IMG/VR virus record: IMGVR_UViG_3300024960_000061
Coordinates: 1-57,981 of that record
Length of the DNA stretch: 57,981 nucleotides
Strand: one strand, 5' to 3'
Origin: a virus
Lineage: Duplodnaviria; Caudoviricetes
Numbering within the stretch: position 1 is the stretch's first letter; the number at the start of each line of letters is the position of its first letter. Positions 34,970 through 53,147 of the stretch are shown here, one piece after another. A program made the position numbers and the translations under genes. The notes beneath the pieces are model-generated. The model made no database searches. It saw only the letters and a list, made by a program, of their open reading frames with translations, and was not told the DNA's origin.

Positions 34970-36426
34970 GCGGCCATCCGGTAGCGCTGGCGGTGGAGGA
35001 AGCGGCGGGCGCTCGCGTGGGCGGCGCGCACCTCGGGGAGCTCGTCGTCGGCCTCGTCGCTGGCGCCCTCGTCGGGCGTCGGGGGCGCCGCGGCGACCAC
35101 GCGGAGGCGCACGCCGTACTCCTCGGCCACCGCGTCGACGTCGACCTCGCGGGTGCGGTCGGTGAACTTCCCGAGCGCGTCCTGCCAGGCGCTGACCATG
35201 CCAGCGGCGGCAGTCTGCGTCTCGGCGCGTCGGGCGAGGTCCTCGGGCGGCGTCGGGTCGTAGACGGCCCACGGGGCAAGGTCCGCGTCGCCGTAGTTCC
35301 ACAGAGCCCAGAGGCGCAGCACCTGGTCGTAGAACGCCGTCGCGAGCAGGTAGGCGTCCGCCTCGCGGAGGTCCTGCTTCACCCCGATGCCGGTCTGCGC
35401 CGAGGCCTTCGCGCCCACCGAGGCGTTCTCGGTGGAGAGGTTGGAGCCCTCGATCGCGATGGAGACGTCGCCGTCCTGGCGCTCGATCAGGGTCTTGAAC
35501 CCCTCGTGCGCGGGGTCCTTCGGCTCGATGAGGTTGACCTTGTAGCTGGCCTTCCCGTCGTCGCCCTGGGGGCTGACGATGGTGGTGTCCGTCGCGAGGT
35601 CGCGCATCTGGTCGAACCAGACCTGCGTGTCGTCGCTCTCCGCCTTCGAGTCGGGGACCTGCAGCTCGACGATCGGGAGGCCGTGCTTCTCCGACCAGCG
35701 GTTCCAGTCGCGCAGCGCCGCGGCGCGGGCCTCGCCGACGAGGCCGAGGCAGCGCAGCACGCCTCGCATCCATGGCCGCGAGCGGGCGGCGCTGAAGAGC
35801 ACCCAGCGGCCATCGCCAGGCACCACCTCCACCTCGCCCTGCGCGGTGAGGGCGATGAAGCACTGGCGCTCCCAGTCGTAGCGGAGGTTGGTCGGGTGCC
35901 AGACCGTGAGGCGCGGGATCCATCGCCCGCGGCCGAGGACGACGTTCACCACGCAGAGGCAGAACCCCATGGTGACCAGCCCGCGCAGGACCTCGCTGGT
36001 GGTCTCCTCTCCGGCGATGGTGGGCCAGTCGGCCTCCAGCGCCTTCGCGGCGGCGCCGACGCGCTGCTTGTGCCCCAGGCCGGGCAGGATGGTGAACGGC
36101 GAGCCCACCACCCCGAGGCAGCGGTTGTTGAGCGCACCGTGGATGCGCGGGTTTCGGTCGAGCGCGTCGGCGAGCAGCGCACTCGCCTGGAACTCGCCCG
36201 CCTCGTGGGCGCTGATGATGCGCTTGACCGTCTCGAAGGTGCGGTCCCAGGCGGCGGTGCCCGGGCGCAGCTGGTCGGTCTTCTTCTTCGCCTCGCCGAG
36301 GCGATGCACCACGATCGTCGGCGCGTCGGCGGCCGGGAGCCTCGGCCGCGCCAGACGCGACGCGGCCTTCGCGAACCGGGCGGCGACGCCGCGGAGGTAG
36401 GAGTAGGCGCGGGCGATGGGGTTCAT
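34966..36426 (-). CDS. Portal protein (DUF935 / Mu gp29-like)
   Basis: Between terL and the protease; GVLRCL, W..WSEKHGLP, ISIAI.G.NL.TE, L..WNYG. Confidence 0.8.
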   Translation of the reverse strand: MNPIARAYSYLRGVAARFAKAASRLARPRLPAADAPTIVVHRLGEAKKKTDQLRPGTAAWDRTFETVKRIISAHEAGEFQASALLADALDRNPRIHGALNNRCLGVVGSPFTILPGLGHKQRVGAAAKALEADWPTIAGEETTSEVLRGLVTMGFCLCVVNVVLGRGRWIPRLTVWHPTNLRYDWERQCFIALTAQGEVEVVPGDGRWVLFSAARSRPWMRGVLRCLGLVGEARAAALRDWNRWSEKHGLPIVELQVPDSKAESDDTQVWFDQMRDLATDTTIVSPQGDDGKASYKVNLIEPKDPAHEGFKTLIERQDGDVSIAIEGSNLSTENASVGAKASAQTGIGVKQDLREADAYLLATAFYDQVLRLWALWNYGDADLAPWAVYDPTPPEDLARRAETQTAAAGMVSAWQDALGKFTDRTREVDVDAVAEEYGVRLRVVAAAPPTPDEGASDEADDELPEVRAAHASARRFLHRQRYRMAA

Positions 36427-38042
36427 GTGCGGGGAGCGAGGAGGCCGCGGGCGCTCGCGACGAGCTTGCGCACCGCCTCCTGGGAGATGGCGGGCGTGGT
36501 GCCCTGGAGCATCAGCTCGGTGAGCCCGAGCGAGAGCGCGTCGATGGAGCCCGGGGAGACCCGCGACGTCGCGTAGTCGTGGTGGGTCATCGTGTGCTCG
36601 AGGGCCGCAAAGCCGGGGCCCACGTGAGAGACGAGGCTCGCGCGGCCGGTGAGAGGCTCGCCGTACAGCTCGCGCACCGTCTCGGCGCGGCCCCGCTTGT
36701 CGCCGCGGGCGCCCACCTTCACCAGGCGCACGAGGATGCGCTCGGGCTCGTGCTGGCGGCCCGTGGCGCGGCTCTTGTCGAGGGCCTCCTGGAGAAGCCA
36801 TCCGATGATGGCCTCCTCGATGAGCGCGCCGCCGCCGTCCGACTCCGCGCAGATGCTGTGGGCCTTGTGCTTGCGGTAGCTCGCCACCGCACGCCCGACC
36901 CAGCCCTTCACGCCCGCGTGTGCGCTCGCGTCGTCGAGCACGTAGCCGCGGCCGTCGGCGCCGCGGGCGATGGTCACGACGCCCGCGTCGTCGGCCTTCG
37001 CCGCGCGGGCCTCGTCGCTCTGGTTGGGGTCGACGTAGACCTCGCAGCGGGAGAGCGAGGGCGCCACCGGCACGCGCCAGGGGACGATGTGGTCCCAGGT
37101 CCAGAGCGCGCCGTCGACGCTCCGCCGGGGCTTGCCCTGGAGCATCGCCTCGGCCTCGGCCTCGGGGGTGTTGCAGAGGTGCTCCTTCGCGCCCTCCAGG
37201 GTCCAGCCGAAGGAGCGGCCGTCGGGTAGCTCGCGCCGGGGGTTGAGGACGTGGGTCGCGGTCGCGTAGGGGCGCGGGGACGGGACGAGCTTCCCGCGCC
37301 CGTCGAGCTCGCCGAGCATCGGGAGGTTGATGACCTCCCAGCCGGCGCCAAACGCGCCCGCCTCGATCTCCCCGATGAGGTCCGGGTCGCACCAGCGGGT
37401 GTGGATGGCCAGCAGGCTCATGCCCTCCTGCCCGCGCTGGAGGATCACCGAGCTCATGTGCGAGCGGACCGACCGCCGCGTCGCCTCGGAGAGCGCCGCC
37501 TCGCGGTTCTTGTAAGGGTCATCAATGACCCCGAGCGCCGCGGGCTGGCCCGAGCCGGGACCATCGACGGAGGTGAACAGGCACCCTCCGCCGGCGGAAG
37601 TCCGCCACATGCTGAGGTTCTGCCGGTCGGCGGCGAGGTCGACGCCGGCGGCGCGGGCGATGGCGCGGCACCGGTGCGATTTGTCGTTGGTCTGCTCCTT
37701 CTGGTAGGTCGAGTAGATGACCGGCCAGGTCGGGTGCTGGCCGAGGATCTGCGCGATGCCGTGGAGTACCAGCTCGGTCTTGCCGTGCTGGGTCGGGACC
37801 GAGATGCAGGCGCGCACCCGCTCGCCGCGGCGGATGCGGTCGAAGAGGTCCGCGACCTGCGCGAGATGCTCCGGCGAGAGGAAGCCTGGAGAGACTCGCG
37901 GGACGTACTCCAGCAGCGTCTCCGAGGCCTTCTCCTCCGCCTCGAGCCGGCGGAGCCTCTCCTCCTTCAGCGCGCGGAGCTCAGCCGCCGCGATCGCGTC
38001 GGCGCTGCTCGGCCGCGGCGAGGCGAGCGTCGAGTTCCTCAT
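36423..38042 (-). CDS. terL: Terminase large subunit
   Basis: Walker A PTQHGKT, IDDPYK, HTRW..DL, C-terminal RNase-H-type domain. Confidence 0.9.
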   Translation of the reverse strand: MRNSTLASPRPSSADAIAAAELRALKEERLRRLEAEEKASETLLEYVPRVSPGFLSPEHLAQVADLFDRIRRGERVRACISVPTQHGKTELVLHGIAQILGQHPTWPVIYSTYQKEQTNDKSHRCRAIARAAGVDLAADRQNLSMWRTSAGGGCLFTSVDGPGSGQPAALGVIDDPYKNREAALSEATRRSVRSHMSSVILQRGQEGMSLLAIHTRWCDPDLIGEIEAGAFGAGWEVINLPMLGELDGRGKLVPSPRPYATATHVLNPRRELPDGRSFGWTLEGAKEHLCNTPEAEAEAMLQGKPRRSVDGALWTWDHIVPWRVPVAPSLSRCEVYVDPNQSDEARAAKADDAGVVTIARGADGRGYVLDDASAHAGVKGWVGRAVASYRKHKAHSICAESDGGGALIEEAIIGWLLQEALDKSRATGRQHEPERILVRLVKVGARGDKRGRAETVRELYGEPLTGRASLVSHVGPGFAALEHTMTHHDYATSRVSPGSIDALSLGLTELMLQGTTPAISQEAVRKLVASARGLLAPRT

Positions 38043-38562
38043 TGGTCAGCGCCCCGATGGGCTTCCCGTCGCTGGTGACGTCGTGGCGCTCGGCGGGCAG
38101 CGTGCCGTCGGCGCGCATCTCGGCGACCCGAGCCTCCGCGCGGAGCTTCCGCAGATGTACCCGCCGGAGCGGAGCCTCCGCGCGGAACTTCAACAACGAC
38201 TCGGCCGCCCGCCAGTCGCCCGGGACGCCCTTCGTCTCCGGCTGGCCGCCCTTCGCGGCCTGGGGCTTCACGCCCTCCGCCGCGCGGCGGATGTACCCGA
38301 CCAGCGCGACGTCGCTCTCTGCCACGGCTTGGTCGACGGCCTTCGCGAGCTCGGCGAAGCGCTCGTCGGCGGCCTTCTCCTCCTCCTCGGTCGCGTCGCC
38401 GGCCCGGACCCGCAGCGCGAAGCGCCCGGCCCGGAGCCACTTGCAGAAGCACGACCACTGCACGCCGGCGAACCCGACGGCCTGCCGGAGCGAGCTGCCC
38501 GCCTTCAGCGCGGCAACGATGCGGGCGCGATCCTCGTCGGTGTAGGTCAGCGGCGGGGCCAT
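37981..38562 (-). CDS. terS: Terminase small subunit
   Basis: N-terminal HTH, DWRAA..LL, HDVTSDGKPI tail; directly upstream of terL. Confidence 0.75.
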   Translation of the reverse strand: MAPPLTYTDEDRARIVAALKAGSSLRQAVGFAGVQWSCFCKWLRAGRFALRVRAGDATEEEEKAADERFAELAKAVDQAVAESDVALVGYIRRAAEGVKPQAAKGGQPETKGVPGDWRAAESLLKFRAEAPLRRVHLRKLRAEARVAEMRADGTLPAERHDVTSDGKPIGALTNEELDARLAAAEQRRRDRGG

Positions 38563-39245
38563 CAGGCGGCGACATTCCAGAAGAGCGCGCCGGGGCGCGA
38601 GCGCACGAAGCGCCAGACCTTGGCGTCGTAGTTCCCGCACGAGGGGAAGGGCGGGGGCTCGGCGGCGTCCTGCTCGTAGCGCTCGAGGGCGACGTGGAGG
38701 GTGGCGCGCCCGACGTTCGGCGGCTTCCCGACGCGCACCGCATGGACCTCGGCGGACGGCCACGCATCGGCCAGCGCCCGCGCGAGCGTCCCGCTGCCGG
38801 CGGCGCACCACACCTCGCGGGGGGCGAGGCCGATCGAGCGGGCCGCAGCGACGAGGGCGTCGTGCGCCTCGTCGTTGTCGAAGCCGAAGGGCACGAGGGC
38901 GGCGCCGACGCGCCGTGCGTACTCCCGAGCCCGGGCCTGCACCACCACCAGGTGCCCGGGGGTGACCTGCACGACCTTCGCCCCGGCCCGGTGGGCGCGG
39001 AGCGTCCGCTCGTGAGGTTCGTTCCGCTTCGCCACGAACACCGTCGCCCGGGCGCCCGCCTCCGCCGCAGCGTGGGCCAGCGCGATCTGCGCGTAGCCCT
39101 GCGCGGGCGACGCGTATACGAACTCCGCGGCGGCGCGGGCCCGGAGGAGCTTCTCGGCGACGCGCTGCTTCGAGCCGCCAGGGAGGAGGTCGTCCCGCAC
39201 CACCAGCACGCCGTCGTGCTCGCGCACGACCGGCCGCGGGATCAG
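38562..39245 (-). CDS. PLP-dependent enzyme (fold type II / PALP family)
   Basis: VRDDLLPGGSKQR (PLP lysine), GSGT, YDAK.W; start uncertain (CTG 39245 overlapping the MTase stop, or GTG 39227). Confidence 0.8.
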   Translation of the reverse strand: MIPRPVVREHDGVLVVRDDLLPGGSKQRVAEKLLRARAAAEFVYASPAQGYAQIALAHAAAEAGARATVFVAKRNEPHERTLRAHRAGAKVVQVTPGHLVVVQARAREYARRVGAALVPFGFDNDEAHDALVAAARSIGLAPREVWCAAGSGTLARALADAWPSAEVHAVRVGKPPNVGRATLHVALERYEQDAAEPPPFPSCGNYDAKVWRFVRSRPGALFWNVAA

Positions 39246-40876
39246 GCGAGCACCTCGCCGAACTCGGAGGCGGGGTCGCCGACGCCGGTGGGCGCGTCGC
39301 CGGGCCCGAGCAGCTCGTCGGCGTCGATCGGGCCGCACGCCTCGGTCGCGCGCTTCGGGTCGCCCTTCACGAACACGAGCACGTTCTGGTGTGCCTTGCC
39401 GAGCTTCCGCGCCGCGAGGAACGCCCGCGGCGCTCGGATCGCGAGGGACGCAGCCTGGGTGACCAGCACGGCCTCGTTGTAGAGCGCGCAGCCGGCGGCC
39501 TCGAAGGCCTCGACCGTGACGCTGGGGAACTTGCGGTAGCGCCCCTTGGCGTCTCGCAGGTCGCCGACGACGAAGCACGCGAAACGGTCGGGGCGGAGCC
39601 GCGCCACCGCGTGGGCGATGATCTCCCGGTAGGCCGCGCAGAACGCCGGCCACTCCATCGTCGAGAGATCGTTCGGGTCGTCGGAGTAGCGTTCGAGGTC
39701 CGCGTACGGCGGGCACGAGAACACGAGGTCGAAGGCCTCGCCCGCAGGGAGCAGCGCGGGCAGCCGGCGGGAGTCGCCGACGATCCACCGCGGGGCGGCC
39801 TCGAGCGTCGCGGCAGCGGCCTGGGCCTCGTTCGCGGCGACCTGCTCGGCGCGGAGCTCGACGCCCGTGTACGCGCGCCCGAGCCAACCCGCGACGAGCC
39901 CGCGAACGGAGCCGCCCGCGAAGGGGTCGAGCACCGCGGCGCCCGGGGCACTGAACCAGCGGTAGGCCGCCTCGGCGAGCACCGGGTCGAAGATCGACGT
40001 GCCGTGCTGCGCGGCGAGCTCGGCGTGGTCGCGCAGGAACTCCTCCCACGGCAGCGGGCGCCCGAGGCGCGCCTCGACCGCGTTCTTCGCCGCGTACATC
40101 TGCGGCGACTGCGCGCTGTTGGAGTAGACGAGCCCGTCCTGCGTGCGGTCGCCCTCGTTGCCGCGCCCGAGCTCGCTCTCGATGCCACGCGCGATCCACG
40201 CGCGCTTGCGCTCCTGCCAGTAGCCCTGCCGGGCGTCGAGCACCGTGAAGGGCGGGATGCCGAACCGCTCGGCCAGCGTCGCCGGTCGGGCCGCGGGGTC
40301 GCGCGAGCCGGCCGCTCCATCGGCGGCAGGGTCTCCCGGCGAGCCGGAGGCGCCCTCGTCGGCGCCGTCGAGGATCGCGTCGCCCGCGCCCTGCACGAGG
40401 GCGTCGAGCGCGGCGTCGTCGAAGCCGATGTCGGCGAGCAACTCGGTCCCGCGGCCGAAGGTCGAGAGCATCTCCAACACGCGCACCGAGTCGTCGACGC
40501 CCTGGAGCGCCTTCGCGTTGTCGGCGACGGTCATCGCGTCCGCCTCGGCGTCGCCCACGTCGACCAGGCGCACCGGGACCATGCCGGGGCCCGGAGCCTC
40601 CGGGTCGAAGAGGTGCTCGGCGCCGCCGCGCGGCTCGCCGTCGACGACGAGGCCCGCGAGGATCGCCTGCGCGGCCTCGAGGCGGCCGTGCCCGCCGATG
40701 ATCCGGCGCGAGCGGCGCTGCGCCACGATGGGCGCGCCCCACGCGGTGCGGAGGATCGTGCGGGCGAGGCGCATCACCTCGTCGCCGTGCATCCTCGGGT
40801 TGCGCGGGTTGGGGCGCAGCTCGGAGACGTGCACGTAGATCGCGGCGGGCGCGGGCTGAGGGAGCGTGGTGTCCAT
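39242..40876 (-). CDS. ParB-like domain plus amino-DNA-methyltransferase-fold fusion
   Basis: PNPRNPR.H, IIGGHGR, ADN (ParB); DPFAGGS motif I; FSCPPY motif IV. Confidence 0.85.
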   Translation of the reverse strand: MDTTLPQPAPAAIYVHVSELRPNPRNPRMHGDEVMRLARTILRTAWGAPIVAQRRSRRIIGGHGRLEAAQAILAGLVVDGEPRGGAEHLFDPEAPGPGMVPVRLVDVGDAEADAMTVADNAKALQGVDDSVRVLEMLSTFGRGTELLADIGFDDAALDALVQGAGDAILDGADEGASGSPGDPAADGAAGSRDPAARPATLAERFGIPPFTVLDARQGYWQERKRAWIARGIESELGRGNEGDRTQDGLVYSNSAQSPQMYAAKNAVEARLGRPLPWEEFLRDHAELAAQHGTSIFDPVLAEAAYRWFSAPGAAVLDPFAGGSVRGLVAGWLGRAYTGVELRAEQVAANEAQAAAATLEAAPRWIVGDSRRLPALLPAGEAFDLVFSCPPYADLERYSDDPNDLSTMEWPAFCAAYREIIAHAVARLRPDRFACFVVGDLRDAKGRYRKFPSVTVEAFEAAGCALYNEAVLVTQAASLAIRAPRAFLAARKLGKAHQNVLVFVKGDPKRATEACGPIDADELLGPGDAPTGVGDPASEFGEVLA

Positions 40877-40896
40877 CGGGGAGGGGAGGGGAGGGT

Positions 40897-41373
40897 TCAA
40901 CTCGGGTCGGAGGCGTCGGGCTCGTGCTGCGCCACGAGGGCGTCGCCCAGGCGGCGCGCGGTGACGAGGTAGCGCTCGCCGCCGAGGATGCGGTGGAGGT
41001 CCAGCAGCGCGGCGATGTCGAGCGAGAGCGGCGCGCCCGCGGAGCGGTGGCGCATATGCTCGCGCAGCCGCTCGATCTCCCGCGTGGCGCTCCCCAGATC
41101 CTCGTCGCGCTCGCGCAGGAGCACGGCCACCTCGTCGCGCTGGCCTTCGACCGCGGTGAGCTTCGACTCGACCTCGCGCACCCGGAAGCGCCCGCCTTCG
41201 AGGTCGCGACCGAGCTGCTCGGCGCGCGCGTTCGCAGCAGCGAGGGCGGCTTCGCGGGCCTCGAGGTCGGCGGTGAGCTCCCCCACACGGGCGGCCAGCG
41301 AGGCGTTGGCCTGCTCGAGCTCGACGAGGGGATTCGTGTCAGGGAGCTTCGTGGTGGGGTCGGTCTTCGCCAT
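40897..41373 (-). CDS. Coiled-coil hypothetical protein
   Basis: GGAG RBS; heptad-rich ORF. Confidence 0.65.
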   Translation of the reverse strand: MAKTDPTTKLPDTNPLVELEQANASLAARVGELTADLEAREAALAAANARAEQLGRDLEGGRFRVREVESKLTAVEGQRDEVAVLLRERDEDLGSATREIERLREHMRHRSAGAPLSLDIAALLDLHRILGGERYLVTARRLGDALVAQHEPDASDPS

Positions 41374-41436: not shown

Positions 41437-41709
41437 ATGAAGCATCTCGCTCGCGTCGCAGACCCGTCACAGGCCGTCGTCTTTATCCACGTCTTCGACC
41501 GGGCGACCGGTGGGTGGGACGTGCAGCAGCGTTACTTCCGCCGCATCCCGATCGCGGGCGAGTACTTCGCGTTTGACGGACACGGTGGATGGTTCGAGGT
41601 CCGGTACGTCGTCCACTGCCCGTTCCCAGAGGCCGACTGCGACGCTGAGATCTACGGGATCGCGGCGGATGCCAGTGCCGTCCAACGGACGATTACGCGC
41701 GCGGACTAA
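41437..41709 (+). CDS. Hypothetical protein
   Basis: Non-repetitive ORF, RIPIAGEY...WFEVRYVVH. Confidence 0.6.
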   Translation: MKHLARVADPSQAVVFIHVFDRATGGWDVQQRYFRRIPIAGEYFAFDGHGGWFEVRYVVHCPFPEADCDAEIYGIAADASAVQRTITRAD

Positions 41710-41755
41710 GCTCTACGAGGCGGCCAGGAAGCGTGGCAAAACGTTTGAGCGCGAG

Positions 41756-42079
41756 TTAGGCAGCGCAGGCAGGTAGCCGCCCGTGGATGAGGTCGTCGTA
41801 GTCGCCCCGGTGCAGGAGCTTCGTCGGGCGGCCGCGCCGGCTCTTCACCTCGCGCACCCGGCACCAGCCCTCCCGCTCAGCGGCGGCGATGAAGGCCCGC
41901 GCGCGACGCAACGAACCGCCTCGCACGCCCATCAGGGCGCGGGCAGTCATCCAGGCCGCGTCGTCGTGCGAGAGGGCGGAGGTCACCGTGGAGGGGCTGC
42001 GGGCGCACGAATGCCGTTGGCACCCCCATGCGGCGTGGCAGTTATGGCCGAGGATGTACGGGGCGGAGCTCCCCGTCAA
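41756..42079 (-). CDS. Hypothetical protein (possible wHTH)
   Basis: Coupled to the upstream stop; basic RRGRPTKL. Confidence 0.45.
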   Translation of the reverse strand: MTGSSAPYILGHNCHAAWGCQRHSCARSPSTVTSALSHDDAAWMTARALMGVRGGSLRRARAFIAAAEREGWCRVREVKSRRGRPTKLLHRGDYDDLIHGRLPACAA

Positions 42080-43071
42080 GCCCAGGGAACATTGACGGTC
42101 TTGACGCCTTGGACGGACACCACGGTTTCGGAGTACCCGTCGCGCGAGCGCTTTCGGATCTCACCGTCAAAAACCGTGACCCCTTCCAAGAGGTCCGCCG
42201 CGAAGAGAGCCTCCCGGAGGTTCGCGCTCGCCAGGAACTGCTTCGCGTCGTCCTTCCATCGGAGAAGGTCCTGCGCTTGGCGTTCGATCTCCCCGAGCTT
42301 CTCTCGGAGACTACGCGCGCGCTGCGCACTCGGCCGTTTCGTCTCCCACGTCCTCACCGCCGCCCAAGCGTCGTCGATCGTCTCCGAAGCGCTCGCGTAG
42401 GGCCCGGCCGTGGTCATCTTCCCGTCGAAAAGCCCCAGCCCAACGATCGTCGAACGAAGCACCCGCCCAGGAGCATCCCGCCCGATGAGGAAGCCTCGAT
42501 CATTGACGTAGACCGCGCCGCGCTCGGCGAGAGAATCGTCGCCACCGAGCCGAGCGCGCATCCGACGGGCTAGTTTCGAGAACTCCGACCCCTCGATCGC
42601 ACGTCGGAACGCTAGGAGCGGCGCGGCCTCCCGTTCGACCCTGGCGATCAGGGCCGGAAGCTCTCGCACAAGCCGCTCCACCACCGCCTGGTACTGCTGG
42701 TAGTCCCGCGCCTGCGACCTACGTTGGCGGAGCGCCACGAACCCTTCCACCAGATCCGCGCCGCATTTCAGCCCAAGGCAAACAACAACGCCGCAGTGCG
42801 TCCGGACCACCAAGCCTTCCTGATGAGGGTGGTTCCGGTTGCTGCATGGGACGTTGACACCGAAATTGTAGAACGCGAGGAGGTTGTCGACGCGAGCGCG
42901 GTGCCGGACCTCCTGCTCGCGAACAAGTCCCGGAAACGCATCGAGTTCATCCGACGTTTCCAGTTCACGCACGTCCTCGAGTTCGACACCGACCAATCCC
43001 GACTCGATGACCGTGTTGCAGGCCGAACAGAACGGATACGCCGTCGACGTTTCATTCTGACCCTTCGTCAT
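42076..43071 (-). CDS. Hypothetical protein with Cys/His metal-binding motif
   Basis: ATGA-coupled; PCS...H..GLVV.T.CG....LG.KCG; lower GC than neighbours. Confidence 0.65.
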   Translation of the reverse strand: MTKGQNETSTAYPFCSACNTVIESGLVGVELEDVRELETSDELDAFPGLVREQEVRHRARVDNLLAFYNFGVNVPCSNRNHPHQEGLVVRTHCGVVVCLGLKCGADLVEGFVALRQRRSQARDYQQYQAVVERLVRELPALIARVEREAAPLLAFRRAIEGSEFSKLARRMRARLGGDDSLAERGAVYVNDRGFLIGRDAPGRVLRSTIVGLGLFDGKMTTAGPYASASETIDDAWAAVRTWETKRPSAQRARSLREKLGEIERQAQDLLRWKDDAKQFLASANLREALFAADLLEGVTVFDGEIRKRSRDGYSETVVSVQGVKTVNVPWA

Positions 43072-43970
43072 GAGCGGATTCTGTAGCGATCCCGCGCTGG
43101 AGGTCCAGAAGGTGCCGCGTCTCGGCGTTTCTCGACGTACCCCTGTCCGCCGCACGGCTTGCACGTCAGGTCCCATCCATCGCACGCACCGCAGCGCACC
43201 CATTCGATCTCTCCCTCCCAGACGTCGGCCGCGCGCAACGTCAACGTCCGCCCGCTGGTGGTGGTGGCCTCGAGCACCAGCCGCGAGGGAAGAACCTTCC
43301 AGCGCACGCGAGTATCGGCGTTGGCGAACCGCAGTCCCACCTCGCGATAGAGCGCGCGCAGTCCATCGGCGAGGGTGCCCTCCCGCTGAAGCCAAGTGAG
43401 CACCGCGCGCATGGCGGGGTCGAAGTCCGTCAGATCGCGGATGCGATCACACGCACCGGACCCGAGCGCGGCTGGCGCGAAGGTGCTGGCGAACGCCCCC
43501 GGGAGGATCGCAGGCGTCACGACCGAGGTCTGCACCCGAATCCGGGCGGCGAGCGGACCGGGGATCGGAGCGCCGCTCTCGGTACGATCGGCCGATTTGG
43601 GCGAGACGCCATCCGCTGCCCACCCAAGCGGCCCACCACGGTCGGGTCGCAGCTCGGTGAGAAGTCGGCGCGCGCGCACAAGCTCGGGGTCTTCCACGTG
43701 CGTCACCCGCTCGACCGGAGCGACGCTCGAGGGGCGCAGCCGGGCTTCGTCGGCGACCTGCACCCGCGCGTCGGGCTGCGCGCCAGGTCGTGACGCGCGC
43801 CGTGGCGCTGGCGCTTCGACAGTCGGCGCCGCGGGAAGCAGCGCGGGCCGCTCGATGACGGCCTCCGTCGGGCCGTACGCCTCGCCGCACTCGGGGCAGG
43901 TGGCCTCGCGCCGCTCGCGCTGCACCAGCACGATCGTAGGCATACAACATCGCGTAATCGGCTCACCCAT
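43068..43970 (-). CDS. Hypothetical protein with zinc ribbons
   Basis: CPECG at the N-terminus; CGAC...CKPCGGQG at the C-terminus. Confidence 0.55.
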   Translation of the reverse strand: MGEPITRCCMPTIVLVQRERREATCPECGEAYGPTEAVIERPALLPAAPTVEAPAPRRASRPGAQPDARVQVADEARLRPSSVAPVERVTHVEDPELVRARRLLTELRPDRGGPLGWAADGVSPKSADRTESGAPIPGPLAARIRVQTSVVTPAILPGAFASTFAPAALGSGACDRIRDLTDFDPAMRAVLTWLQREGTLADGLRALYREVGLRFANADTRVRWKVLPSRLVLEATTTSGRTLTLRAADVWEGEIEWVRCGACDGWDLTCKPCGGQGYVEKRRDAAPSGPPARDRYRIRS

Positions 43971-44734
43971 CAGCTGCTCCCTACCGGCGGCGGTTCGTTG
44001 AACGTGTGGACATGCGCCGGGAGCTTCGCGTTGCGCGCGAACCCCAGCGTGACGAGCGCGCTGGTGACGCCCTGCGGCTCCGCCAGGTCGTGCAGGACCT
44101 CCACGGCGACCGGCCTCCCCTGGCGCGCCCGCGTGGCGACGGCGCGCACCATCGCGCTGTCGCGGGTCATCGGCCAGCTACGCCAGTGCGGCGCCTTCGA
44201 CGACGGCACCTCCGCGGACTTCGCCCAGCGGCCGATCACGGCGCCGTCGACGTCGACGATGGTCCCGTCGAGGCGGTAGACGGCGCAGCGCACCGGCCGC
44301 TTAATGCGCTGCACCTCCTCCAGCGCCCATGTGCCGGGCCCGGGCGCGTCCGCGACGACGACGGTCTCGGCGAAGTCGACGATGCACTCCACCAGGTGGC
44401 GCGCCCACGTCTCCGCGCCGGGCCGCTGTACCAGCGTCGTCGAGCCGGTGAGCAGCGTCAGGTACTCCGGGGGCTCGTCGAAGCCCTCGGTCGGCGGCGC
44501 ACGGGCAATGACCAGCGCCGCGCATGCGGGGCAGTGATCGACGCCAGCACCCGCGGACACCGCGCACCCACGGCACAACGGGGCGTCGCAGGTGCGCTTG
44601 CGACCGGGCATCTGGCCGTCGCAGAGCAGCTCGGCGCCACGTCGCCCGCACACCGAGCAGGAGCGCCGACGCACCCCTCGGGTGCAGACGATCGCCATGC
44701 CCCCGCCGGGGAGGTCCATGCGCTCACAGGGCAT
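43970..44734 (-). CDS. Zinc-finger plus SLOG/DUF2493-like fusion
   Basis: Cys cluster CSVC..LCD..TCDAPLC..C..DHCP; LLTGS, VVVADAPGP, RDSAMV resemble SLOG motifs. Confidence 0.5.
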   Translation of the reverse strand: MPCERMDLPGGGMAIVCTRGVRRRSCSVCGRRGAELLCDGQMPGRKRTCDAPLCRGCAVSAGAGVDHCPACAALVIARAPPTEGFDEPPEYLTLLTGSTTLVQRPGAETWARHLVECIVDFAETVVVADAPGPGTWALEEVQRIKRPVRCAVYRLDGTIVDVDGAVIGRWAKSAEVPSSKAPHWRSWPMTRDSAMVRAVATRARQGRPVAVEVLHDLAEPQGVTSALVTLGFARNAKLPAHVHTFNEPPPVGSS

Positions 44735-44814
44735 CGCGGCCGCCCTCCTCGCGCACGCGCGTTAGGTCCCCGATCGCGGGGGAGAGCCCATCCCGCCCCG
44801 CTCTGCCCCCTCTG

Positions 44815-44965
44815 CCTGGAACGCCCTGGAACGCCCTGGAACGCCACGCTGCCGGTCCGTTGTCAGCCGTTGTCAGCAGACCCCTCCGATGCTGACAACG
44901 GTCGAAACCGCGAGCAGAACAGGGGTTCTCACTAGCCGTTGTCAGCAGTGTCAGCATTGTCAGCA
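44815..44965. repeat. Iteron-like repeat cluster
   Basis: CCTGGAACGC x3 (44815-44844); TGTCAGC x6 including a 12-bp inverted pair (44867-44878 / 44890-44901). Confidence 0.8.
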
Positions 44966-45177
44966 CCCCTCACAGCGTCCGTTGCAGCAACGACCATCAC
45001 GGCCAGCTCAAGCGCCCGGCGGACGCGGTGGGGCGCGGCGGGGTCGCCCTGGATCAGGTCGAGCGCGCGGGCGGCCTGGGGCTGCTCGAGCACCGCCAGG
45101 GCGAGGCCCCGGATGGTGGCCTCGGCGAGCTGGCCGTCGGCGGCCTCGCGCAGGACCTGGAGGGCCCACGTCCCCAC
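44932..45177 (-). CDS. Small helical ORF, possibly a detached integrase C-terminal tail
   Basis: LALAVL...ALDL...RRALELAV; frame stays open up to 45285, across the att core. Confidence 0.45.
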   Translation of the reverse strand: MGTWALQVLREAADGQLAEATIRGLALAVLEQPQAARALDLIQGDPAAPHRVRRALELAVMVVAATDAVRGADNADTADNG

Positions 45178-46565
45178 GACGTCCCCAGAACGGGGGTAAG
45201 CGGGCGTAACGACAGAGTCGACCTCCCCCCTACGGATCTGGGGGTTGGAAGTTCGACCCTTCCCGGGCGCGCAAGTAGTTTTCGATCACCCGGGGGGGTG
45301 GCGTGGGACAAAAGGTTTGTCCCACGCGGGGCCGTCTGGGCGGCCTTCCGGTGGAGGTGATCGGACGAGAGGTGTGCGTACCTCTCGGTCACCTCGGTGT
45401 CGCTGTGCCCAAGGAAGGTCGCGATTTCCGAGAGCGACCACTGGACGCCCCAGGTGCCCATGATCAGGTGCGACGCGCAGGTGTGCCGCAGGTCGTGGAA
45501 GCGTACGGGCCGACCGAGCCCCAGGCGCTTCGAGTAGCCCTCCTGGCGGACGTTCTCCCGCACGCGGGTGCCGTCGGCTTCCTTCCGCACCTTGAGGAGG
45601 TGGTAGTCAGCCCAGCGCGCGTCGTCGCTGCGCCCCCGGCGCCCGCCGCGGGACGTGGGGAACACCAGGCCCTCCTTCGAGGTCGGTGCGATCTCCTTCC
45701 ACCGGGTCAGGAACTCCAGTGCAGGTCCGAGCAGCGGAACGGGGCGGCTCTTCCCATTCTTCGGGGGACCCTTGTGGCTGAACTTCACGATGACCTCCGG
45801 GCGCGCGGCGTTGAGATGCACGTCCACCCAGTGCAGGCCCCAGATCTCCCCCTGCCGCAGACCCGAGTACGCGGCGAAGAGGTAGACGAGGCGGTTGGCC
45901 TCGGGGATCGTCGTCGAGGCCTCCAGGCGCGCGAGCTCGTCAAGGGTCAGGTAGGTGCCGACCTCGTTGCCTCGCTGGCGCCGCCCCCGGACGTGGACGT
46001 CGCTGGCGGGGTTCGAGCTCAGCAGGCCCTTCTCCCGGGCGCCTTCCAGCATCTGCCGCAGCTGCGACAGCACCTTCGAGACGGTGTCGCGGGAGAGCTT
46101 CCGGCTCGATGGGGCGTGGCTTCTCTCCCCGCCCTTCGTCGCGACCAGCGCGGGCTTGAGCATCATCGCGCTCAGCCAGGCTCGCACGTCGGACTCGGCG
46201 ATGGCGTCGAGGGCGAGCGCGGCGAGGGGCGTCTCGGCGATGTGGCAGTCCCACTGCGACCGGAGAGTGTCGATGGAGCGGAGGTCTCCGAGCTTCTCCT
46301 GCTCGTCCAACCAGCGTGCCCCGAAACGCCGGAGGCTGTCCTCTTCGGGGCGGCACTGCGCCGCCGCGTGGTGCAGCACTGCGAGCGTCGCTCGCTGGCG
46401 CTCGGCATCCTCCCGGGCGGCGAAGGTGTCCCCGACCTTCTTCTCTCCGACCCACACCCGTACCCTGAACCGCCCCGAGGGCAGTGTTTCCACCGACCCC
46501 ACTCCCTCGCGGTCCCTGGCAGGACCCCGGACTCGCCGATCCTTGTTTCTCGCGAGCTCTCCCAT
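45054..46565 (-). CDS. int: Tyrosine integrase reading through the att core
   Basis: SGLRQGE, KNGKSR, FHDLRHT, LGHSD..VTERYAHL; continues ARPGRVELPT (antisense tRNA). Confidence 0.92.
   Translation of the reverse strand: MGELARNKDRRVRGPARDREGVGSVETLPSGRFRVRVWVGEKKVGDTFAAREDAERQRATLAVLHHAAAQCRPEEDSLRRFGARWLDEQEKLGDLRSIDTLRSQWDCHIAETPLAALALDAIAESDVRAWLSAMMLKPALVATKGGERSHAPSSRKLSRDTVSKVLSQLRQMLEGAREKGLLSSNPASDVHVRGRRQRGNEVGTYLTLDELARLEASTTIPEANRLVYLFAAYSGLRQGEIWGLHWVDVHLNAARPEVIVKFSHKGPPKNGKSRPVPLLGPALEFLTRWKEIAPTSKEGLVFPTSRGGRRGRSDDARWADYHLLKVRKEADGTRVRENVRQEGYSKRLGLGRPVRFHDLRHTCASHLIMGTWGVQWSLSEIATFLGHSDTEVTERYAHLSSDHLHRKAAQTAPRGTNLLSHATPPGDRKLLARPGRVELPTPRSVGGRSTLSLRPLTPVLGTSWGRGPSRSCARPPTASSPRPPSGASPWRCSSSPRPPARST
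45230..45273 (+). tRNA. 3' half of tRNA-Arg(ACG) = att core (not a complete tRNA)
   Basis: CTACGGA anticodon loop, T-arm GGAAG-TTCGACC-CTTCC, acceptor 3' strand CGGGCGC-G; no matching 5' half upstream. Confidence 0.8.
45301..45327. repeat. 12-bp perfect inverted repeat (possible integrase arm sites / post-tRNA hairpin)
   Basis: GCGTGGGACAAA-agg-TTTGTCCCACGC; related GTCCCCA repeats at 45170-45187. Confidence 0.65.
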
Positions 46566-46722
46566 GGCCTCGACCCTCTCTTCGCGACCCCACCTGTGGG
46601 GGTACGCACGACGGACGTCACTGTACACATCTGAAACAGCGGGAAAACAAGGCGATGCCCTGTGTCCTGCCCGGACGACACCACGGCGGACACCAGCAAC
46701 ATTCGCGGACCTTGGTGCGAGT

Positions 46723-49134: not shown

Positions 49135-50170
49135 AATCCACCTCGCCACGGCGCTGAGCCGCGAGAAAGTCGTCCAGACCCTTCCATCGGGGATCCCATC
49201 GCCAGACACCGGCGTCGGGGTCTACGTGCGCGCGCAGGGCGTTGAGGAGTGCCTGCTCTGTGCGGGCGACGACGGGGTTCGTGCTGGCGTCTGCATCGAA
49301 CGCGATCACGACGCGGCGCGCCCCCCAGAACTTCAGCAGATCCATGATGGGACCCCACGCCTGGACCCCGGGGATCGACACTACCGGCGAGCCGAGCAGC
49401 GCCGTCGCGACGTCTGCCTTCAGCTCGCCCTCGGTAACGACGAGCCGCTCGGCGCCGACGTCGCGCATCGCCTGCGCGGCGAGCGGAACGTGCGGCGCAG
49501 CGGACGCGGAAGGTCCGCCGTGGCTTCGGCTGGTGATGTACTGATAACGGTTCCCGTCACATGGGTCCGGCCGGCGCACCTTGAGCGCCACGATGCGGTC
49601 CTCGGGATTCCGCACCGGGATGAGCAGCCCCGGCCAGCCACCGAGCGACCACCACCCTTGGCCATCGGCAGTGCGCCACACGATGCCCGGCACGCCCGAG
49701 GCGACCTCCGCGCCCACGGCATCGACCACGGCGCGCGCTACCCGCGCCCGACCCGTCGTCGAGAGGGTGCGATATCCGTTCGTGTCGATCGCCGCGTCGT
49801 CGAGCCCCCGGCGGCGGAGGGCGTCCCGATCGACGTCGTTCAGGCGAAGCGCGGCGAGTGCGGCGCGGTACGCCCGGTCCACGTCCTCGATCTTCGCGTG
49901 CGTGATGGTCGGCGTCGGGGCGACGGCGACCGGCCTCTGCGGGCGTCCGCCGAAGTGATGGATGTGGAACTCCACGCCCGCCCGGTTGATTCGTGCCCGA
50001 CCCGATGCGATCCGCTTACAGAGGATGGTAAGACCGTCCCGCGCGACCTGGCACCAGCTGCCTCCGCCGCACACGGGACATCGCCGCGACGACGACACGT
50101 CGGACCACGGACGGCCTCCCACGCGCGCCTGTCCTGCGGCGTCCCTGAGGGCCTCCTTCAGGCGACCCAT
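49121..50170 (-). CDS. DUF3854/TOPRIM-type primase with N-terminal Zn finger
   Basis: CPVCG..WC, VTEGELKAD, IAFDAD, KGLDDFL. Confidence 0.85.
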   Translation of the reverse strand: MGRLKEALRDAAGQARVGGRPWSDVSSSRRCPVCGGGSWCQVARDGLTILCKRIASGRARINRAGVEFHIHHFGGRPQRPVAVAPTPTITHAKIEDVDRAYRAALAALRLNDVDRDALRRRGLDDAAIDTNGYRTLSTTGRARVARAVVDAVGAEVASGVPGIVWRTADGQGWWSLGGWPGLLIPVRNPEDRIVALKVRRPDPCDGNRYQYITSRSHGGPSASAAPHVPLAAQAMRDVGAERLVVTEGELKADVATALLGSPVVSIPGVQAWGPIMDLLKFWGARRVVIAFDADASTNPVVARTEQALLNALRAHVDPDAGVWRWDPRWKGLDDFLAAQRRGEVDCGAK

Positions 50171-50336
50171 CGGACTGCTCCACACGGCAGCGACGCGCTG
50201 AGCACCCGTGCCGTCCCACCGTGTGCGGAGCACGACGCGTGACGGGGACGTTGAGAGCCTCGTCGCGGGCGAGGCAGGGACCCGAGAGGCCCAGACCTAC
50301 CTTGGGCGAGCGAGGCAGTCGTGAACGCCGTCGAGT

Positions 50337-50696
50337 TCATCGGGACGCCTTCCGCAGAGCCCGTGCGCGCGCACGGGTCACCGCATCGACCGACTCGTGG
50401 GTGACGATCGCCTGCGACGACGCCGCCCTCAGAGCGGCCCTCCCGCGGGACAGGTCCTCCTCGACGAAGCCCGCGCGCTTCAGGAGCACGTCCACCCGTG
50501 CCAGTTCCTCCGACGTGGCGGCGTCGTAAAGGGCCCGGTCGTGCGGCGTAGGCGCGGGCGGAAGAACGCGCGCTGGGGCTCGCTGTGCCGCCCGCTGTGC
50601 GGCGAGCTCTCGCCGCAGCAGATCCACGAGGCGCCGGCTCTGTGCTTCGTCGAGCGCTCGGGCGACACCGCGACTCTGGGTTCCGCGCGCGCTCAT
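50337..50696 (-). CDS. Hypothetical protein
   Basis: ATGA-coupled ORF upstream of the primase. Confidence 0.45.
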   Translation of the reverse strand: MSARGTQSRGVARALDEAQSRRLVDLLRRELAAQRAAQRAPARVLPPAPTPHDRALYDAATSEELARVDVLLKRAGFVEEDLSRGRAALRAASSQAIVTHESVDAVTRARARALRKASR

Positions 50697-51407: not shown

Positions 51408-51449
51408 GGGTCAACCTCGCCTTCACGACGAGGGCTACCATTTATCGAT

Positions 51450-53125: not shown

Positions 53126-53147
53126 GGGTTTCGAACGGACCGCCGCT

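What the first reader, a model, noticed from the sequence alone, without database searches (positions are those of the whole stretch)
37981..40876. ParB-methyltransferase plus PLP enzyme coupled to terminase: candidate two-step DNA hypermodification
Seen: ParB-MTase (CPPY motif IV), a PALP-fold enzyme with intact PLP lysine, and terS overlap stop-to-start. Known: phage PLP enzymes of this fold decarboxylate amino-acid-modified thymidines in 5-hmdU phages, and ParB-linked modifiers often sit beside terminases. No hmdU synthase, kinase or amino-acid:DNA transferase is visible here. Inference: the MTase fold may transfer the aminocarboxypropyl group of SAM to a base, which the PLP enzyme then decarboxylates or deaminates, giving a non-methyl modification around packaging time.
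Basis: partly seen in the sequence, partly recalled or inferred. Interest (0 to 1): 0.78.

Follow-up and report, generated by a model that had tools for sequence, protein, structure and literature searches.

The report
Candidate phage DNA aminopropylation module
Just before its DNA-packaging genes, this prophage carries a methyltransferase-like enzyme and a vitamin-B6 decarboxylase that probably put a positively charged aminopropyl group from S-adenosylmethionine onto the phage DNA, a modification I found no description of.

Summary
On the minus strand lie a ParB-methyltransferase (MT, 39242-40900, motif IV SCPPY), a 221-aa PALP protein with its lysine (38562-39227), terS and TerL.

- **PALP identity:** it falls in the same PHROG (7093) as Pseudomonas phage M6 gp52, a proven PLP decarboxylase of amino acids tethered to DNA.
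- **PALP depends on the MT:** this MT family is adjacent in 75 of 80 viral loci. In 26 of 39 longer homologues PALP is nested inside the MT fold.
- **The MT often stands alone:** only 27 of 75 MT-anchored loci carry PALP.
- **New here:** in a sister clade of the same MT family, a pyruvoyl S-adenosylmethionine decarboxylase sits at the PALP position in 58 of 80 loci. One such decarboxylase (phage P2559S) is experimentally validated.
- **Motif I switch:** those sister MTs carry Asp where PALP-linked MTs carry Gly (56/56 against 82/82). Spermidine synthase uses an Asp at that position to select decarboxylated SAM. The switch is essentially one lineage event.
- **No 5-hmdU pathway genes** were found.

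Best reading (about 0.5): the MT transfers SAM's aminocarboxypropyl arm to DNA and PALP decarboxylates it to aminopropyl. Nothing is shown biochemically. An ordinary methylase remains a live rival.

The parts
39242..40900 (-). ParB-methyltransferase-like protein (552 aa from TTG 40900; ATG at 40876 is the alternative start). Proposed SAM-dependent aminocarboxypropyl transferase acting on DNA.
   Evidence: phrog_498 at 3e-98 and phrog_12517 at 1.7e-103. Pfam N6_N4_Mtase 28.5 bits, motif I region only. AF2 model of the MT core has pLDDT 83.4 and pTM 0.77. It is a class I Rossmann MTase fold; the nearest structures are TrmN 3tma and Trm11, with TM about 0.5.
40298..40861 (-). ParB/Srx-like N-terminal domain (about residues 14-201)
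   Evidence: phrog_723 at 1.4e-19 (residues 14-201), phrog_620 at 1.4e-17 and phrog_15396 at 9.8e-25. Pfam ParB was not reported for the window protein at E<=0.1. PF02195 is present in some fused homologues.
39899..39928 (-). Motif I, DPFAGGSVRG. Gly330 (39911-39913) sits at the position where the SpeD-linked sister clade has Asp.
   Evidence: Read from the sequence. Invariant D58 P59 F60 G62 G63 S64 R66 G67 in alignment A2. Gly in 82 of 82 PALP-linked MTs and Asp in 56 of 56 SpeD-linked MTs.
39704..39718 (-). Motif IV, SCPPY, with an invariant Cys where amino-methyltransferases have D, N or S
   Evidence: Read from the sequence. C129 P130 P131 Y132 are invariant in A2 and in A3. [STA]CPPY occurs in 71 of 75 PALP-linked MT ORFs.
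38562..39227 (-). Short PALP-fold (fold type II) PLP enzyme, 221 aa from GTG. Possible CTG start at 39245. Proposed decarboxylase of the DNA-borne amino acid.
   Evidence: Pfam PALP 4.2e-12. phrog_7093 at 2.2e-37, the family of M6 gp52 (2.2e-159). hhalign to gp52 gives E 1.6e-5 over 214 columns, probability 79%. AF2 pLDDT 91.6. Foldseek top hits are D-cysteine desulfhydrase 4d8w and the ACC-deaminase homologue 1j0a, TMq 0.81.
39168..39170 (-). Codon of the predicted PLP-binding lysine (K20 in GGSKQR)
   Evidence: Invariant in 25 of 25 sequences. Aligned with K36 of M6 gp52, which the authors name as the likely internal-aldimine lysine (PMC8989533 passage).
37981..38562 (-). Terminase small subunit (193 aa). 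Its ATG shares one base with the PALP stop.
   Evidence: phrog_4102 at 3.1e-7 and phrog_1482 at 4.9e-6. Sequence read.
36423..38042 (-). Terminase large subunit (start uncertain; the longest ORF overlaps terS by 62 nt)
   Evidence: phrog_38 at 4.7e-32. Pfam Terminase_6C at 2.3e-4, 21.6 bits, just below its 22.6-bit cut-off.
40897..41373 (-). Coiled-coil protein of unknown role directly upstream. Its TGA overlaps the TTG of the ParB-MT ORF. It is a neighbour, not shown to belong to the module.
   Evidence: ORF list. Only weak coiled-coil-type matches. No tblastn match (E <= 1e-4) in any of the 80 PALP loci.

Best explanation
This is a two-enzyme module that modifies phage DNA after replication. 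It sits in the ParB-terminase locus and draws on the amino-acid arm of S-adenosylmethionine rather than its methyl group.

Step 1 (inferred): the ParB-MT binds DNA and SAM. It transfers the 3-amino-3-carboxypropyl (acp) group to a base and releases methylthioadenosine.

Step 2 (inferred from homology): the PALP enzyme forms a Schiff base with the free alpha-amine of the DNA-borne acp group. It then removes the carboxylate, as M6 gp52 does with glycinyl-thymidine, leaving a cationic 3-aminopropyl base.

A sister clade of the same MT family appears to reach the same product by the other order. There a neighbouring AdoMetDC first makes decarboxylated SAM. That MT carries an Asp in the glycine loop and transfers the aminopropyl group directly.

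The target atom is unresolved. One option is an exocyclic N of A or C, by likeness to (D/N/S)PPY enzymes. The other is C5 of a pyrimidine, through the invariant Cys of CPPY acting as a thiolate.

The likely use is protection from host nucleases, and perhaps charge neutralisation, at the time of packaging.

Shown here: gene identities, family memberships, linkage statistics, nested fusions and the motif switch. Not shown: any chemistry.
For: (a) PALP is in the PHROG of M6 gp52 and shares K36/K20 and the C-terminal PFP..YD.KAW..FWN box with it. gp52 and ViI gp226 decarboxylate amino acids tethered to DNA (PMC8989533 passages).

(b) PALP is tied to this MT.
- tblastn finds the MT beside PALP in 75 of 80 viral loci; the HMM finds it in 74 of 80.
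- The gene order varies: MT then PALP in 75 loci, PALP then MT in 20, same ORF in 5, opposite strand in 1.
- In genome contigs the MT is present in 53 of 66 PALP loci.

(c) 26 of 39 longer homologues have PALP nested between motif I and motif IV. The insertion lies in the loop between helix aB and strand b3.

(d) In the sister clade of phrog_498 MTs, an AdoMet_dc gene lies directly downstream in 58 of 80 loci, before terS/TerL. That is the slot PALP holds in the window.

(e) The P2559S copy of that decarboxylase restored spermidine in E. coli lacking speD (PMC9992855 passage).

(f) Motif I shows Gly in 82 of 82 PALP-linked MTs and Asp in 56 of 56 SpeD-linked MTs. In spermidine synthase an invariant Asp in the middle of this loop excludes the SAM carboxylate (PMC1282579 passage).

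(g) No MT column separates PALP-linked MTs (80) from unlinked full-flank MTs (32). The MT chemistry therefore seems to be the same with and without PALP. A methyl product would give PALP no amine to act on.

(h) No hmdU-pathway genes were found in the window.

(i) complex prediction of MT with PALP gave weak support.
- Score 0.47; best of 3 controls 0.00.
- The mark was reached by 58 of 80 solved complexes and 2 of 110 mismatched pairs.
- At 0.60 or under, it was reached by only 7 of those 80 and by both mismatches that passed.
- The runs agree in at least 94% of contacts, and the partner's pLDDT is at least 81.
Against: - The MT often stands without any decarboxylase. 48 of 75 MT-anchored loci lack PALP, 23 of them with at least 2 kb on both sides.
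- 21 of 27 cultured-phage records with the MT have neither partner. This fits a self-sufficient ordinary methylase.
- Pfam and PHROG name it a DNA methylase. Its nearest solved folds are methyltransferases (TrmN, Trm11, PrmA). No acp- or aminopropyl-transferase is among the listed top hits.
- The window's own MT has the Gly and Arg of a normal SAM binder.
- The Gly/Asp switch needs only 2 changes on the tree, with 2 independent pairs and no statistical weight.
- hhalign could not align the MT with a spermidine synthase (probability 0.6%). The positional equivalence of the Asp rests on my ungapped motif alignment between strand b1 and helix aA.
- 13 of 66 genomic PALP loci show no MT within 5 kb.
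- The nested insertion lies in the aB-b3 loop. By my reading of the Rossmann topology, that is the sheet edge away from the cofactor site, so it does not show channelling.
- DNA as the substrate is inferred only from the ParB domain, the likeness to PF01555 and the locus.
- The provirus is 83% complete.
Confidence: 0.5

Rival explanations
1. Same end product, opposite order. PALP is a PLP-dependent SAM decarboxylase, a non-homologous stand-in for SpeD. It supplies decarboxylated SAM to the MT, which transfers the aminopropyl group directly to DNA.
For: PALP and a validated AdoMetDC occupy the same slot between the MT and terS in two clades of one MT family. Nesting PALP inside the MT could serve to hand over a scarce cofactor. 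SAM is itself an alpha-amino acid with a bulky side chain, like gp52's substrates.
Against: All 82 PALP-linked MTs keep Gly and Arg in motif I, where all 56 SpeD-linked MTs have Asp and Phe or Met. So they look built to hold the SAM carboxylate. The characterised relatives of PALP act on DNA-tethered amino acids, not on free SAM.
Confidence: 0.15
2. The ParB-MT is an ordinary orphan N6-adenine or N4-cytosine DNA methyltransferase of the ParB-terminase locus. PALP has a separate or accessory role, for example handling SAM or S-adenosylhomocysteine, or an auxiliary metabolic function.
For: Pfam N6_N4_Mtase is above its cut-off. phrog_498 is named 'DNA methyltransferase'. The fold matches are methyltransferases. 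The MT is frequently alone. ParB-fused MTases upstream of terminase are common in Paracoccus prophages and are read as m6A/m4C enzymes, with activity unconfirmed (PMC6536676 passage).
Against: It does not explain several results:
- a gp52-family decarboxylase is found almost only beside, or inside, this MT;
- a SAM decarboxylase replaces PALP in the sister clade, together with an Asp in the glycine loop;
- motif IV carries an invariant Cys instead of D, N or S.

The characterised ParB-associated MTases M.EcoGIX and M.BceJIII are beta-class DPPY enzymes (PMC7736820 passage). This family is nearly absent from plasmids, in 2 of 72,556 records.
Confidence: 0.2
3. The pair acts on something other than DNA. 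Candidates are a polyamine (a spermidine-synthase-like reaction that supplies counter-ions for packaging), a packaging or capsid protein, or an RNA.
For: Phage AdoMetDC genes have so far been read as polyamine genes (PMC9992855, abstract and passages). The nearest solved folds of the MT core are RNA and protein methyltransferases (TrmN, Trm11, PrmA). No result here shows DNA binding.
Against: The N-terminal ParB/Srx domain is present in both clades. Both halves of the MT resemble PF01555 DNA methylases. The module always sits in the locus where phage DNA-modifying genes cluster (PMC6536676 and PMC4738411 passages). PALP's characterised relatives work on DNA. There is no Pfam Spermine_synth match and no hhalign alignment to spermidine synthase.
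Confidence: 0.08

Closest known systems
PLP-dependent decarboxylases of thymidine hypermodification (Pseudomonas phage M6 gp52, Salmonella phage ViI gp226)
   Same: Same PHROG (7093). Same ACC-deaminase-like fold type II. The lysine aligns with K36. Both share the C-terminal PFP..YD.KAW..FWN box. These enzymes act on an alpha-amino acid tethered to a base in polymeric DNA.
   Different: The window protein is about 55 residues shorter (221-227 against 278 aa). It is linked to a SAM-dependent MT-fold enzyme, not to the 5-hmdU kinase, the amino-acid:DNA transferase or the radical SAM isomerase. None of those was found here. The substrate would be SAM-derived acp, not glycine or serine on 5-hmdU.
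Spermidine synthase with AdoMetDC (SpeE/SpeD): aminopropyl transfer from decarboxylated SAM by a methyltransferase-fold enzyme
   Same: Class I MTase fold. The sister clade of the window's MT is paired with a validated AdoMetDC. It carries an Asp in the middle of the glycine-rich loop, the feature that makes spermidine synthase specific for decarboxylated SAM.
   Different: No detectable sequence relation (no Pfam match; hhalign probability 0.6%). The ParB domain and the DNA-methylase-like motifs point to DNA, not putrescine. The window's own MT has Gly, not Asp, and is paired with a PLP enzyme.
RNA aminocarboxypropyl transferases (Tyw2 for wybutosine, Tsr3 and TapT for acp3-uridines).
   Same: They set the precedent that SAM-binding enzymes, including one of the class I MTase fold, can transfer the acp arm of SAM to a nucleobase.
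   Different: They act on RNA. They are not followed by decarboxylation. No homology to them was seen among the listed fold matches.
Orphan ParB-fused N6A/N4C DNA methyltransferases of the phage ParB-terminase (ParB-Tls) locus
   Same: Same locus, same N-terminal ParB domain, and partial similarity to PF01555.
   Different: The motif order is I then IV, not the beta-class order IV then I. Motif IV has an invariant Cys (CPPY). The family is tied to two unrelated decarboxylases. No member has a demonstrated product in anything I could read.

Membership tests
phrog_7093 / M6 gp52-type PLP decarboxylase acting on DNA-tethered amino acids | Profile match to the family that holds the characterised enzyme | tested here: met
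   The window's PALP scores 2.2e-37 over profile positions 15-278 of 279. M6 gp52 scores 2.2e-159 over the full length. hhalign of A1 against gp52 gives E 1.6e-5 over 214 columns, with probability only 79%.
phrog_7093 / M6 gp52-type PLP decarboxylase acting on DNA-tethered amino acids | PLP-binding lysine and fold type II (ACC-deaminase-like) structure | tested here: met
   K20 is invariant and aligned with gp52 K36. The model has pLDDT 91.6. 1j0a matches with TMq 0.81, and D-cysteine desulfhydrase is the top hit.
phrog_7093 / M6 gp52-type PLP decarboxylase acting on DNA-tethered amino acids | Genomic company of 5-hmdU DNA kinase, aGPT-Pplase/amino-acid:DNA transferase and dUMP hydroxymethylase | tested here: not met
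   No such Pfam family among 85 ORFs of 41.4-58 kb. phmmer with the M6 gp51/53/54 region found nothing in the window. The company is instead the CPPY MT, in 75 of 80 loci.
phrog_7093 / M6 gp52-type PLP decarboxylase acting on DNA-tethered amino acids | Decarboxylase activity on modified DNA | not testable with these tools
   Needs an enzyme assay.
N6-adenine/N4-cytosine DNA methyltransferase (Pfam PF01555, beta class) | Pfam match above the gathering score over the whole domain | tested here: inconclusive
   28.5 bits against a cut-off of 26.7, but only profile positions 176-217 of 221, the motif I region. The P2559S homologue matches positions 2-121 with its motif IV half.
N6-adenine/N4-cytosine DNA methyltransferase (Pfam PF01555, beta class) | Motif IV (D/N/S)PP(Y/F) and the beta-class order IV before I | tested here: not met
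   Motif IV is [STA]CPPY with an invariant Cys. Motif I precedes motif IV.
N6-adenine/N4-cytosine DNA methyltransferase (Pfam PF01555, beta class) | Methyl transfer to DNA | not testable with these tools
   I could read no characterised member of the CPPY family. The characterised M.EcoGIX and M.BceJIII are DPPY enzymes.
Aminopropyltransferase (spermidine synthase type) | Acidic residue in the middle of the glycine-rich loop that excludes the SAM carboxylate | tested here: not met
   The window's MT and all 82 PALP-linked MTs have Gly. The feature is met only in the sister clade, with 56 of 56 SpeD-linked MTs carrying Asp. The rule is taken from the PMC1282579 passage.
Aminopropyltransferase (spermidine synthase type) | Sequence membership (Pfam PF01564) | tested here: not met
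   No Pfam hit. hhalign against a PF01564-positive protein gave probability 0.6%.
ParB/Srx N-terminal domain | Profile match | tested here: met
   Several ParB-like PHROGs, from 1e-24 to 1e-13. Pfam ParB was not reported for the window protein. PF02195 is seen in some fused homologues and in L044.
Terminase small subunit | Profile match and position before TerL | tested here: met
   phrog_4102 at 3.1e-7 and phrog_1482 at 4.9e-6. TerL (phrog_38 at 4.7e-32) is next downstream.

The most novel reading that the evidence does not exclude
A large, phage-wide family annotated as 'ParB DNA methyltransferases' (phrog_498, motif IV CPPY) consists of DNA aminoalkyl-transferases. These would make bases never described in DNA, in three forms:
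- MT alone gives a 3-amino-3-carboxypropyl base.
- MT plus the gp52-like PLP enzyme gives a 3-aminopropyl base, by decarboxylation on the DNA.
- The Asp-variant MT plus AdoMetDC gives the same aminopropyl base from decarboxylated SAM.

If so, part of the AdoMetDC genes that make this the commonest 'polyamine' gene of phages would serve DNA modification rather than spermidine synthesis.
Probability: 0.45. Interest if true: 0.92.

Novelty: new variant of a known kind. Interest (0 to 1): 0.85.

Why it matters
If true, phage DNA hypermodification would gain a new chemical route: the amino-acid arm of SAM used on DNA, independent of 5-hmdU.

The family is large and spread across hosts. PALP relatives occur in 412 viral contigs. 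Hosts run from Firmicutes to haloarchaea.

It would also matter for three practical reasons:
- It would give a testable reason for the invariant Cys in motif IV.
- It would offer a new explanation for phage-encoded AdoMetDC.
- It would yield enzymes that place a primary amine on DNA from a cheap cofactor, which is useful for labelling.

Such adducts would also affect restriction, CRISPR and nanopore base-calling of these phages.

Tried and rejected
Dead ends and weak results:
- Sequence search of PALP against PDB chains gave only colicin Ia at E 0.19, which I take as chance.
- NCBIfam gave only sub-threshold dehydratase and CcrM-type hits.
- tblastn of PALP against cultured phages found 3 records and missed the divergent Pam4 domain. 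Its sensitivity is therefore limited.
- Clustering of neighbour ORFs in the high-GC loci was polluted by antisense and alternative-frame ORFs. It showed no alternative tailoring enzyme in PALP-less loci, only terminases, portals, RusA and DUF1376.
- AdoMet_dc was absent from the first 155 loci. It appeared only when the scan was re-anchored on the P2559S-type MT.
- hhalign of the MT profile against a spermidine synthase gave no usable alignment.
- A GC3-based gene call of the window was unreliable because antisense frames also score high.
- Of the three full-flank PALP loci without the MT by HMM, L042 and L044 carry a divergent TSPPY ORF directly downstream. These match phrog_12517 at 6.5e-7 and 1.2e-9, and L044 also has ParB_N. 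L058 has nothing recognisable.

Considered and set aside:
- A programmed frameshift fusing the MT and PALP in the window. There is no evidence for it.
- A role for PALP in removing S-adenosylhomocysteine. This does not explain the SpeD clade.

Literature limits:
- Searches for a described MT-PLP or MT-AdoMetDC DNA modification found none (all 10 searches used). The library covers open-access papers and bioRxiv only.
- Iyer et al. 2013 (NAR 41:7635), which defined the ParB-Tls locus, is not held. I know its content only through citing passages and cannot say whether it lists PLP or AdoMetDC genes there.
- Supplements are closed. The complementation data for P2559S (SI Fig. S4 of PMC9992855) and the gp52 supplementary figures were not seen.
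- From memory only: Tyw2, Tsr3 and TapT as acp transferases, and a report that changing the loop Asp of a plant spermidine synthase gives putrescine N-methyltransferase activity.

Full report
**What is in the window.** The record is an IMG/VR provirus of 57,981 bases, about 72% G+C, estimated 83% complete. On the minus strand the order is:
- a coiled-coil ORF (40897-41373);
- a 552-aa ParB-methyltransferase-like protein, here called the MT (39242-40900);
- a short PALP protein (38562-39227);
- terS (37981-38562);
- TerL (36423-38042);
- then portal and protease ORFs.

Motif IV reads SCPPY at 39704-39718. The PALP lysine is present at 39168-39170. The PALP stop and the terS start share one base. 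The MT-PALP junction is less tidy. The first canonical start is a GTG 14 bases after the MT stop. A 4-base overlap exists only with CTG at 39245, the codon where the closest homologue (90% identical) begins MIPRP.

**The PALP protein.**
- Pfam PALP scores 4.2e-12 and phrog_7093 scores 2.2e-37.
- I located M6 gp52 in the unannotated M6 record with a profile of the window's family (E 7.8e-8 among M6 ORFs). Its lysine 36 lies in PSFSKIRG, and it is the full-length archetype of phrog_7093 (2.2e-159).
- Profile-profile comparison aligns 214 columns (E 1.6e-5, probability 79%). It places the window's K20 on K36 and reveals a shared C-terminal box, PFP..YD.KAW..FWN.
- The paper on thymidine hypermodification shows that purified gp52 and ViI gp226 decarboxylate C-alpha-glycinyl-thymidine and O-seryl-thymidine in DNA. 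It also reports that gp226 was modelled on PDB 1j0a (PMC8989533, passages).
- The AlphaFold model of the window protein (pLDDT 91.6, pTM 0.84) matches D-cysteine desulfhydrase best and 1j0a with TMq 0.81.
- The family is large and tightly conserved. There are 1196 proteins of about 227 aa at E<=0.001 among the 8000 candidates scored, at about 60% identity, and 62 invariant columns among 25 sequences.

**The MT.**
- It belongs to phrog_498 and phrog_12517, with ParB-like PHROG matches at the N-terminus.
- Pfam sees only the motif I part of N6_N4_Mtase, plus a sub-threshold RsmD-like match. In the P2559S homologue, Pfam sees the motif IV half. Both halves therefore resemble DNA amino-methyltransferases, but in the order I then IV.
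- The core is strongly conserved (alignment A2). The Cys of CPPY is invariant in A2 and A3. [STA]CPPY occurs in 71 of 75 PALP-linked ORFs.
- The model (pLDDT 83.4) is a class I Rossmann methyltransferase. Its nearest solved relatives are TrmN, Trm11 and PrmA, at TM about 0.5.
- The characterised ParB-associated methylases M.EcoGIX and M.BceJIII are DPPY beta-class enzymes (PMC7736820 passage). This family is nearly absent from plasmids, in 2 of 72,556 records.

**Linkage of PALP to the MT.**
- A scan of IMG/VR with the PALP alignment found 412 relatives. In the 80 loci kept, the MT is adjacent in 75 by tblastn and in 74 by HMM.
- Of the six HMM misses, three lie at contig ends. Of the other three, two carry a divergent ParB/TSPPY ORF next door.
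- Gene order varies across the 101 paired loci. MT then PALP occurs in 75, PALP then MT in 20, the same ORF in 5, and the opposite strand in 1.
- In one-per-species genomes, 68 loci were found, mostly prophages of Alphaproteobacteria. 53 of the 66 PALP-positive loci have the MT within 5 kb and 13 do not.
- Among 39 longer homologues, 28 carry both PF00291 and PF01555. 26 show the order motif I, PALP, motif IV. PALP is thus nested in the loop between helix aB and strand b3 of the MT.
- The cultured Erythrobacter phages R6L and ZS04 and Pseudanabaena phage Pam4 have this form. Microcystis phage Mae-JY30 has separate genes followed by the terminase.
- Complex prediction gave weak support. The score was 0.47 against a best control of 0.00. 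The mark was reached by 58 of 80 solved complexes and 2 of 110 mismatched pairs. At 0.60 or under it was reached by only 7 of those 80 and by both mismatches that passed. The runs agree in at least 94% of contacts, and the partner's pLDDT is at least 81.

**The reverse link does not hold.**
Of the 75 new loci, only 27 have PALP.
- 23 of the 48 without PALP have at least 2 kb on both sides.
- CPPY is present with or without PALP.
- 21 of the 27 cultured-phage records with the MT have neither partner. Examples are Listeria B054, Enterococcus phiFL3A/B, mycobacteriophages, Clostridium phiCTP1 and halovirus HCTV-2.
- With or without PALP, the MT sits just upstream of terminases of different families.
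- No alignment column separates the 80 PALP-linked MTs from the 32 full-flank unlinked Gly-type MTs. On a tree of the C-terminal half, the PALP label flips 24 times.
- PALP is therefore an optional add-on to an MT whose own sequence does not change.

**The new lead: a sister clade paired with a SAM decarboxylase.**
- In Croceibacter phage P2559S, the MT homologue gp66 is 38% identical with the same motifs, matches phrog_498 at 2.5e-122 and has a ParB-like N-terminus.
- gp66 overlaps gp67, an AdoMet_dc protein (Pfam 2.1e-19). A published complementation test found gp67 to be a bona fide AdoMetDC. The word 'methyltransferase' does not occur in that paper's main text (PMC9992855).
- Re-anchoring the scan on this MT type gave 80 loci. 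In 58 of them an AdoMet_dc homologue (30-76% identical to gp67) lies directly downstream, followed by terS, TerL and portal. None of the 80 has PALP. Most copies keep the ESH self-processing box.
- Two unrelated decarboxylases thus occupy the same slot beside one MT family.

**The motif I switch.**
- The residue after the second Gly of motif I is Gly in 82 of 82 PALP-linked MTs and Asp in 56 of 56 SpeD-linked MTs. Unlinked MTs have 54 Gly, 7 Asp and 1 Glu. These are 200 distinct MTs, one per locus (fuller counts).
- Three residues on, Arg goes with Gly in 86 of 86. Phe goes with Asp in 59 of 60, with one Met.
- In spermidine synthase, an invariant Asp in the middle of this loop makes the pocket too small for the SAM carboxylate (PMC1282579 passage).
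- The positional equivalence is my own ungapped alignment of VLDPFAGGS with VLILGGGDG between strand b1 and helix aA. hhalign did not confirm it.
- The switch needs only 2 changes on the tree and gives 2 independent pairs, with no statistical weight. It is a mechanistic pointer, not a replicated correlation.

**Mechanism.** A PLP enzyme needs a primary aliphatic amine. The only such group that an MT-fold enzyme can deliver is the acp arm of SAM.
- I therefore propose acp transfer by the Gly/Arg-type MT, then decarboxylation on the DNA by PALP, giving an aminopropyl base.
- The Asp-type MT with AdoMetDC would reach the same product from decarboxylated SAM.
- MT-only phages would stop at acp.
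- The target atom is open: an exocyclic N, or C5 of a pyrimidine through the invariant Cys. Thiolate attack at C6 is the route used by other C5-modifying enzymes (PMC8989533 discussion passage).
- All chemical steps are inference. The rivals are the reverse order (0.15), an ordinary methylase with an unrelated PALP (0.2) and a non-DNA target (0.08).

**Absence of the 5-hmdU route.** Pfam on 85 ORFs of 41.4-58 kb found only recombinases, integrases, DUF3854 and an endonuclease/exonuclease/phosphatase-family protein. The M6 neighbours of gp52 found nothing in the window. The provirus is incomplete, so this is not proof.

**Known or new.** The ParB-terminase locus as a home of DNA-modifying genes is known (passages in PMC6536676 and PMC4738411). 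So are gp52-type decarboxylases and phage AdoMetDC. My six literature searches found no description of an MT-PLP or MT-AdoMetDC pair as a DNA-modifying system. The founding paper on the locus and all supplements could not be read.

Noticed in passing
window 39227-39245: The closest homologue (90% identical) starts MIPRP. The window has CTG (Leu) at that codon, overlapping the MT stop as CTGA, and the first canonical start is GTG 18 bases downstream. Either a CTG start is used or the N-terminus is 6 residues shorter.
   Followed up: partly
window 41441-57981: This part holds a serine resolvase/recombinase, a tyrosine integrase, an rve transposase core, DUF3854 and an endonuclease/exonuclease/phosphatase-family protein (Pfam). 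More than one integrative element may be present, and the prophage end is probably inside the window.
   Followed up: no
L159 3539-4318 (Croceibacter phage P2559S gp65): An ASCH-domain protein lies directly upstream of the MT-AdoMetDC pair. [quoted passage not shown]
   Followed up: no
L162 5322-5576 and L165 4722-4976: In one P2559S-like contig the AdoMet_dc homologue is 85 aa long and lacks the stretch with the ESH self-processing box. It is possibly an inactive copy.
   Followed up: no
P0122 (1129 aa): One nested MT-PALP protein also carries a LAGLIDADG intein-type domain (PF14528).
   Followed up: no
P0152, P0155-P0157; L042 9159-10721; L044 8543-10060: PALP also occurs fused C-terminally to, or next to, a more distant MT type with motif IV [ST]SPPY. 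One of these is named TrmN6-like by its source. The partnership is therefore not limited to the CPPY clade.
   Followed up: partly
P0158 (1757 aa): A very long protein with PF01358 and FtsJ (PF01728) domains has a weak PALP-like region (E 2e-10).
   Followed up: no
L001 2374-3417 (Erythrobacter phage R6L gp7): A PAPS-reductase-like gene lies about 1.4 kb upstream of the nested ParB-MT-PALP gene gp1.
   Followed up: no
L318 3326-3967 and 5624-5735 (halovirus HCTV-2): The archaeal virus carries the ParB-MT, followed directly by a second AdoMet-MTase, with a third MTase about 2.3 kb further downstream.
   Followed up: no
L269/L296 and L261/L286: Puniceibacterium antarcticum SM1211 and one Rhodobacter MAG each hold two PALP loci. 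In the MAG both lie on one contig, and one of them (L261) has no detectable MT.
   Followed up: no
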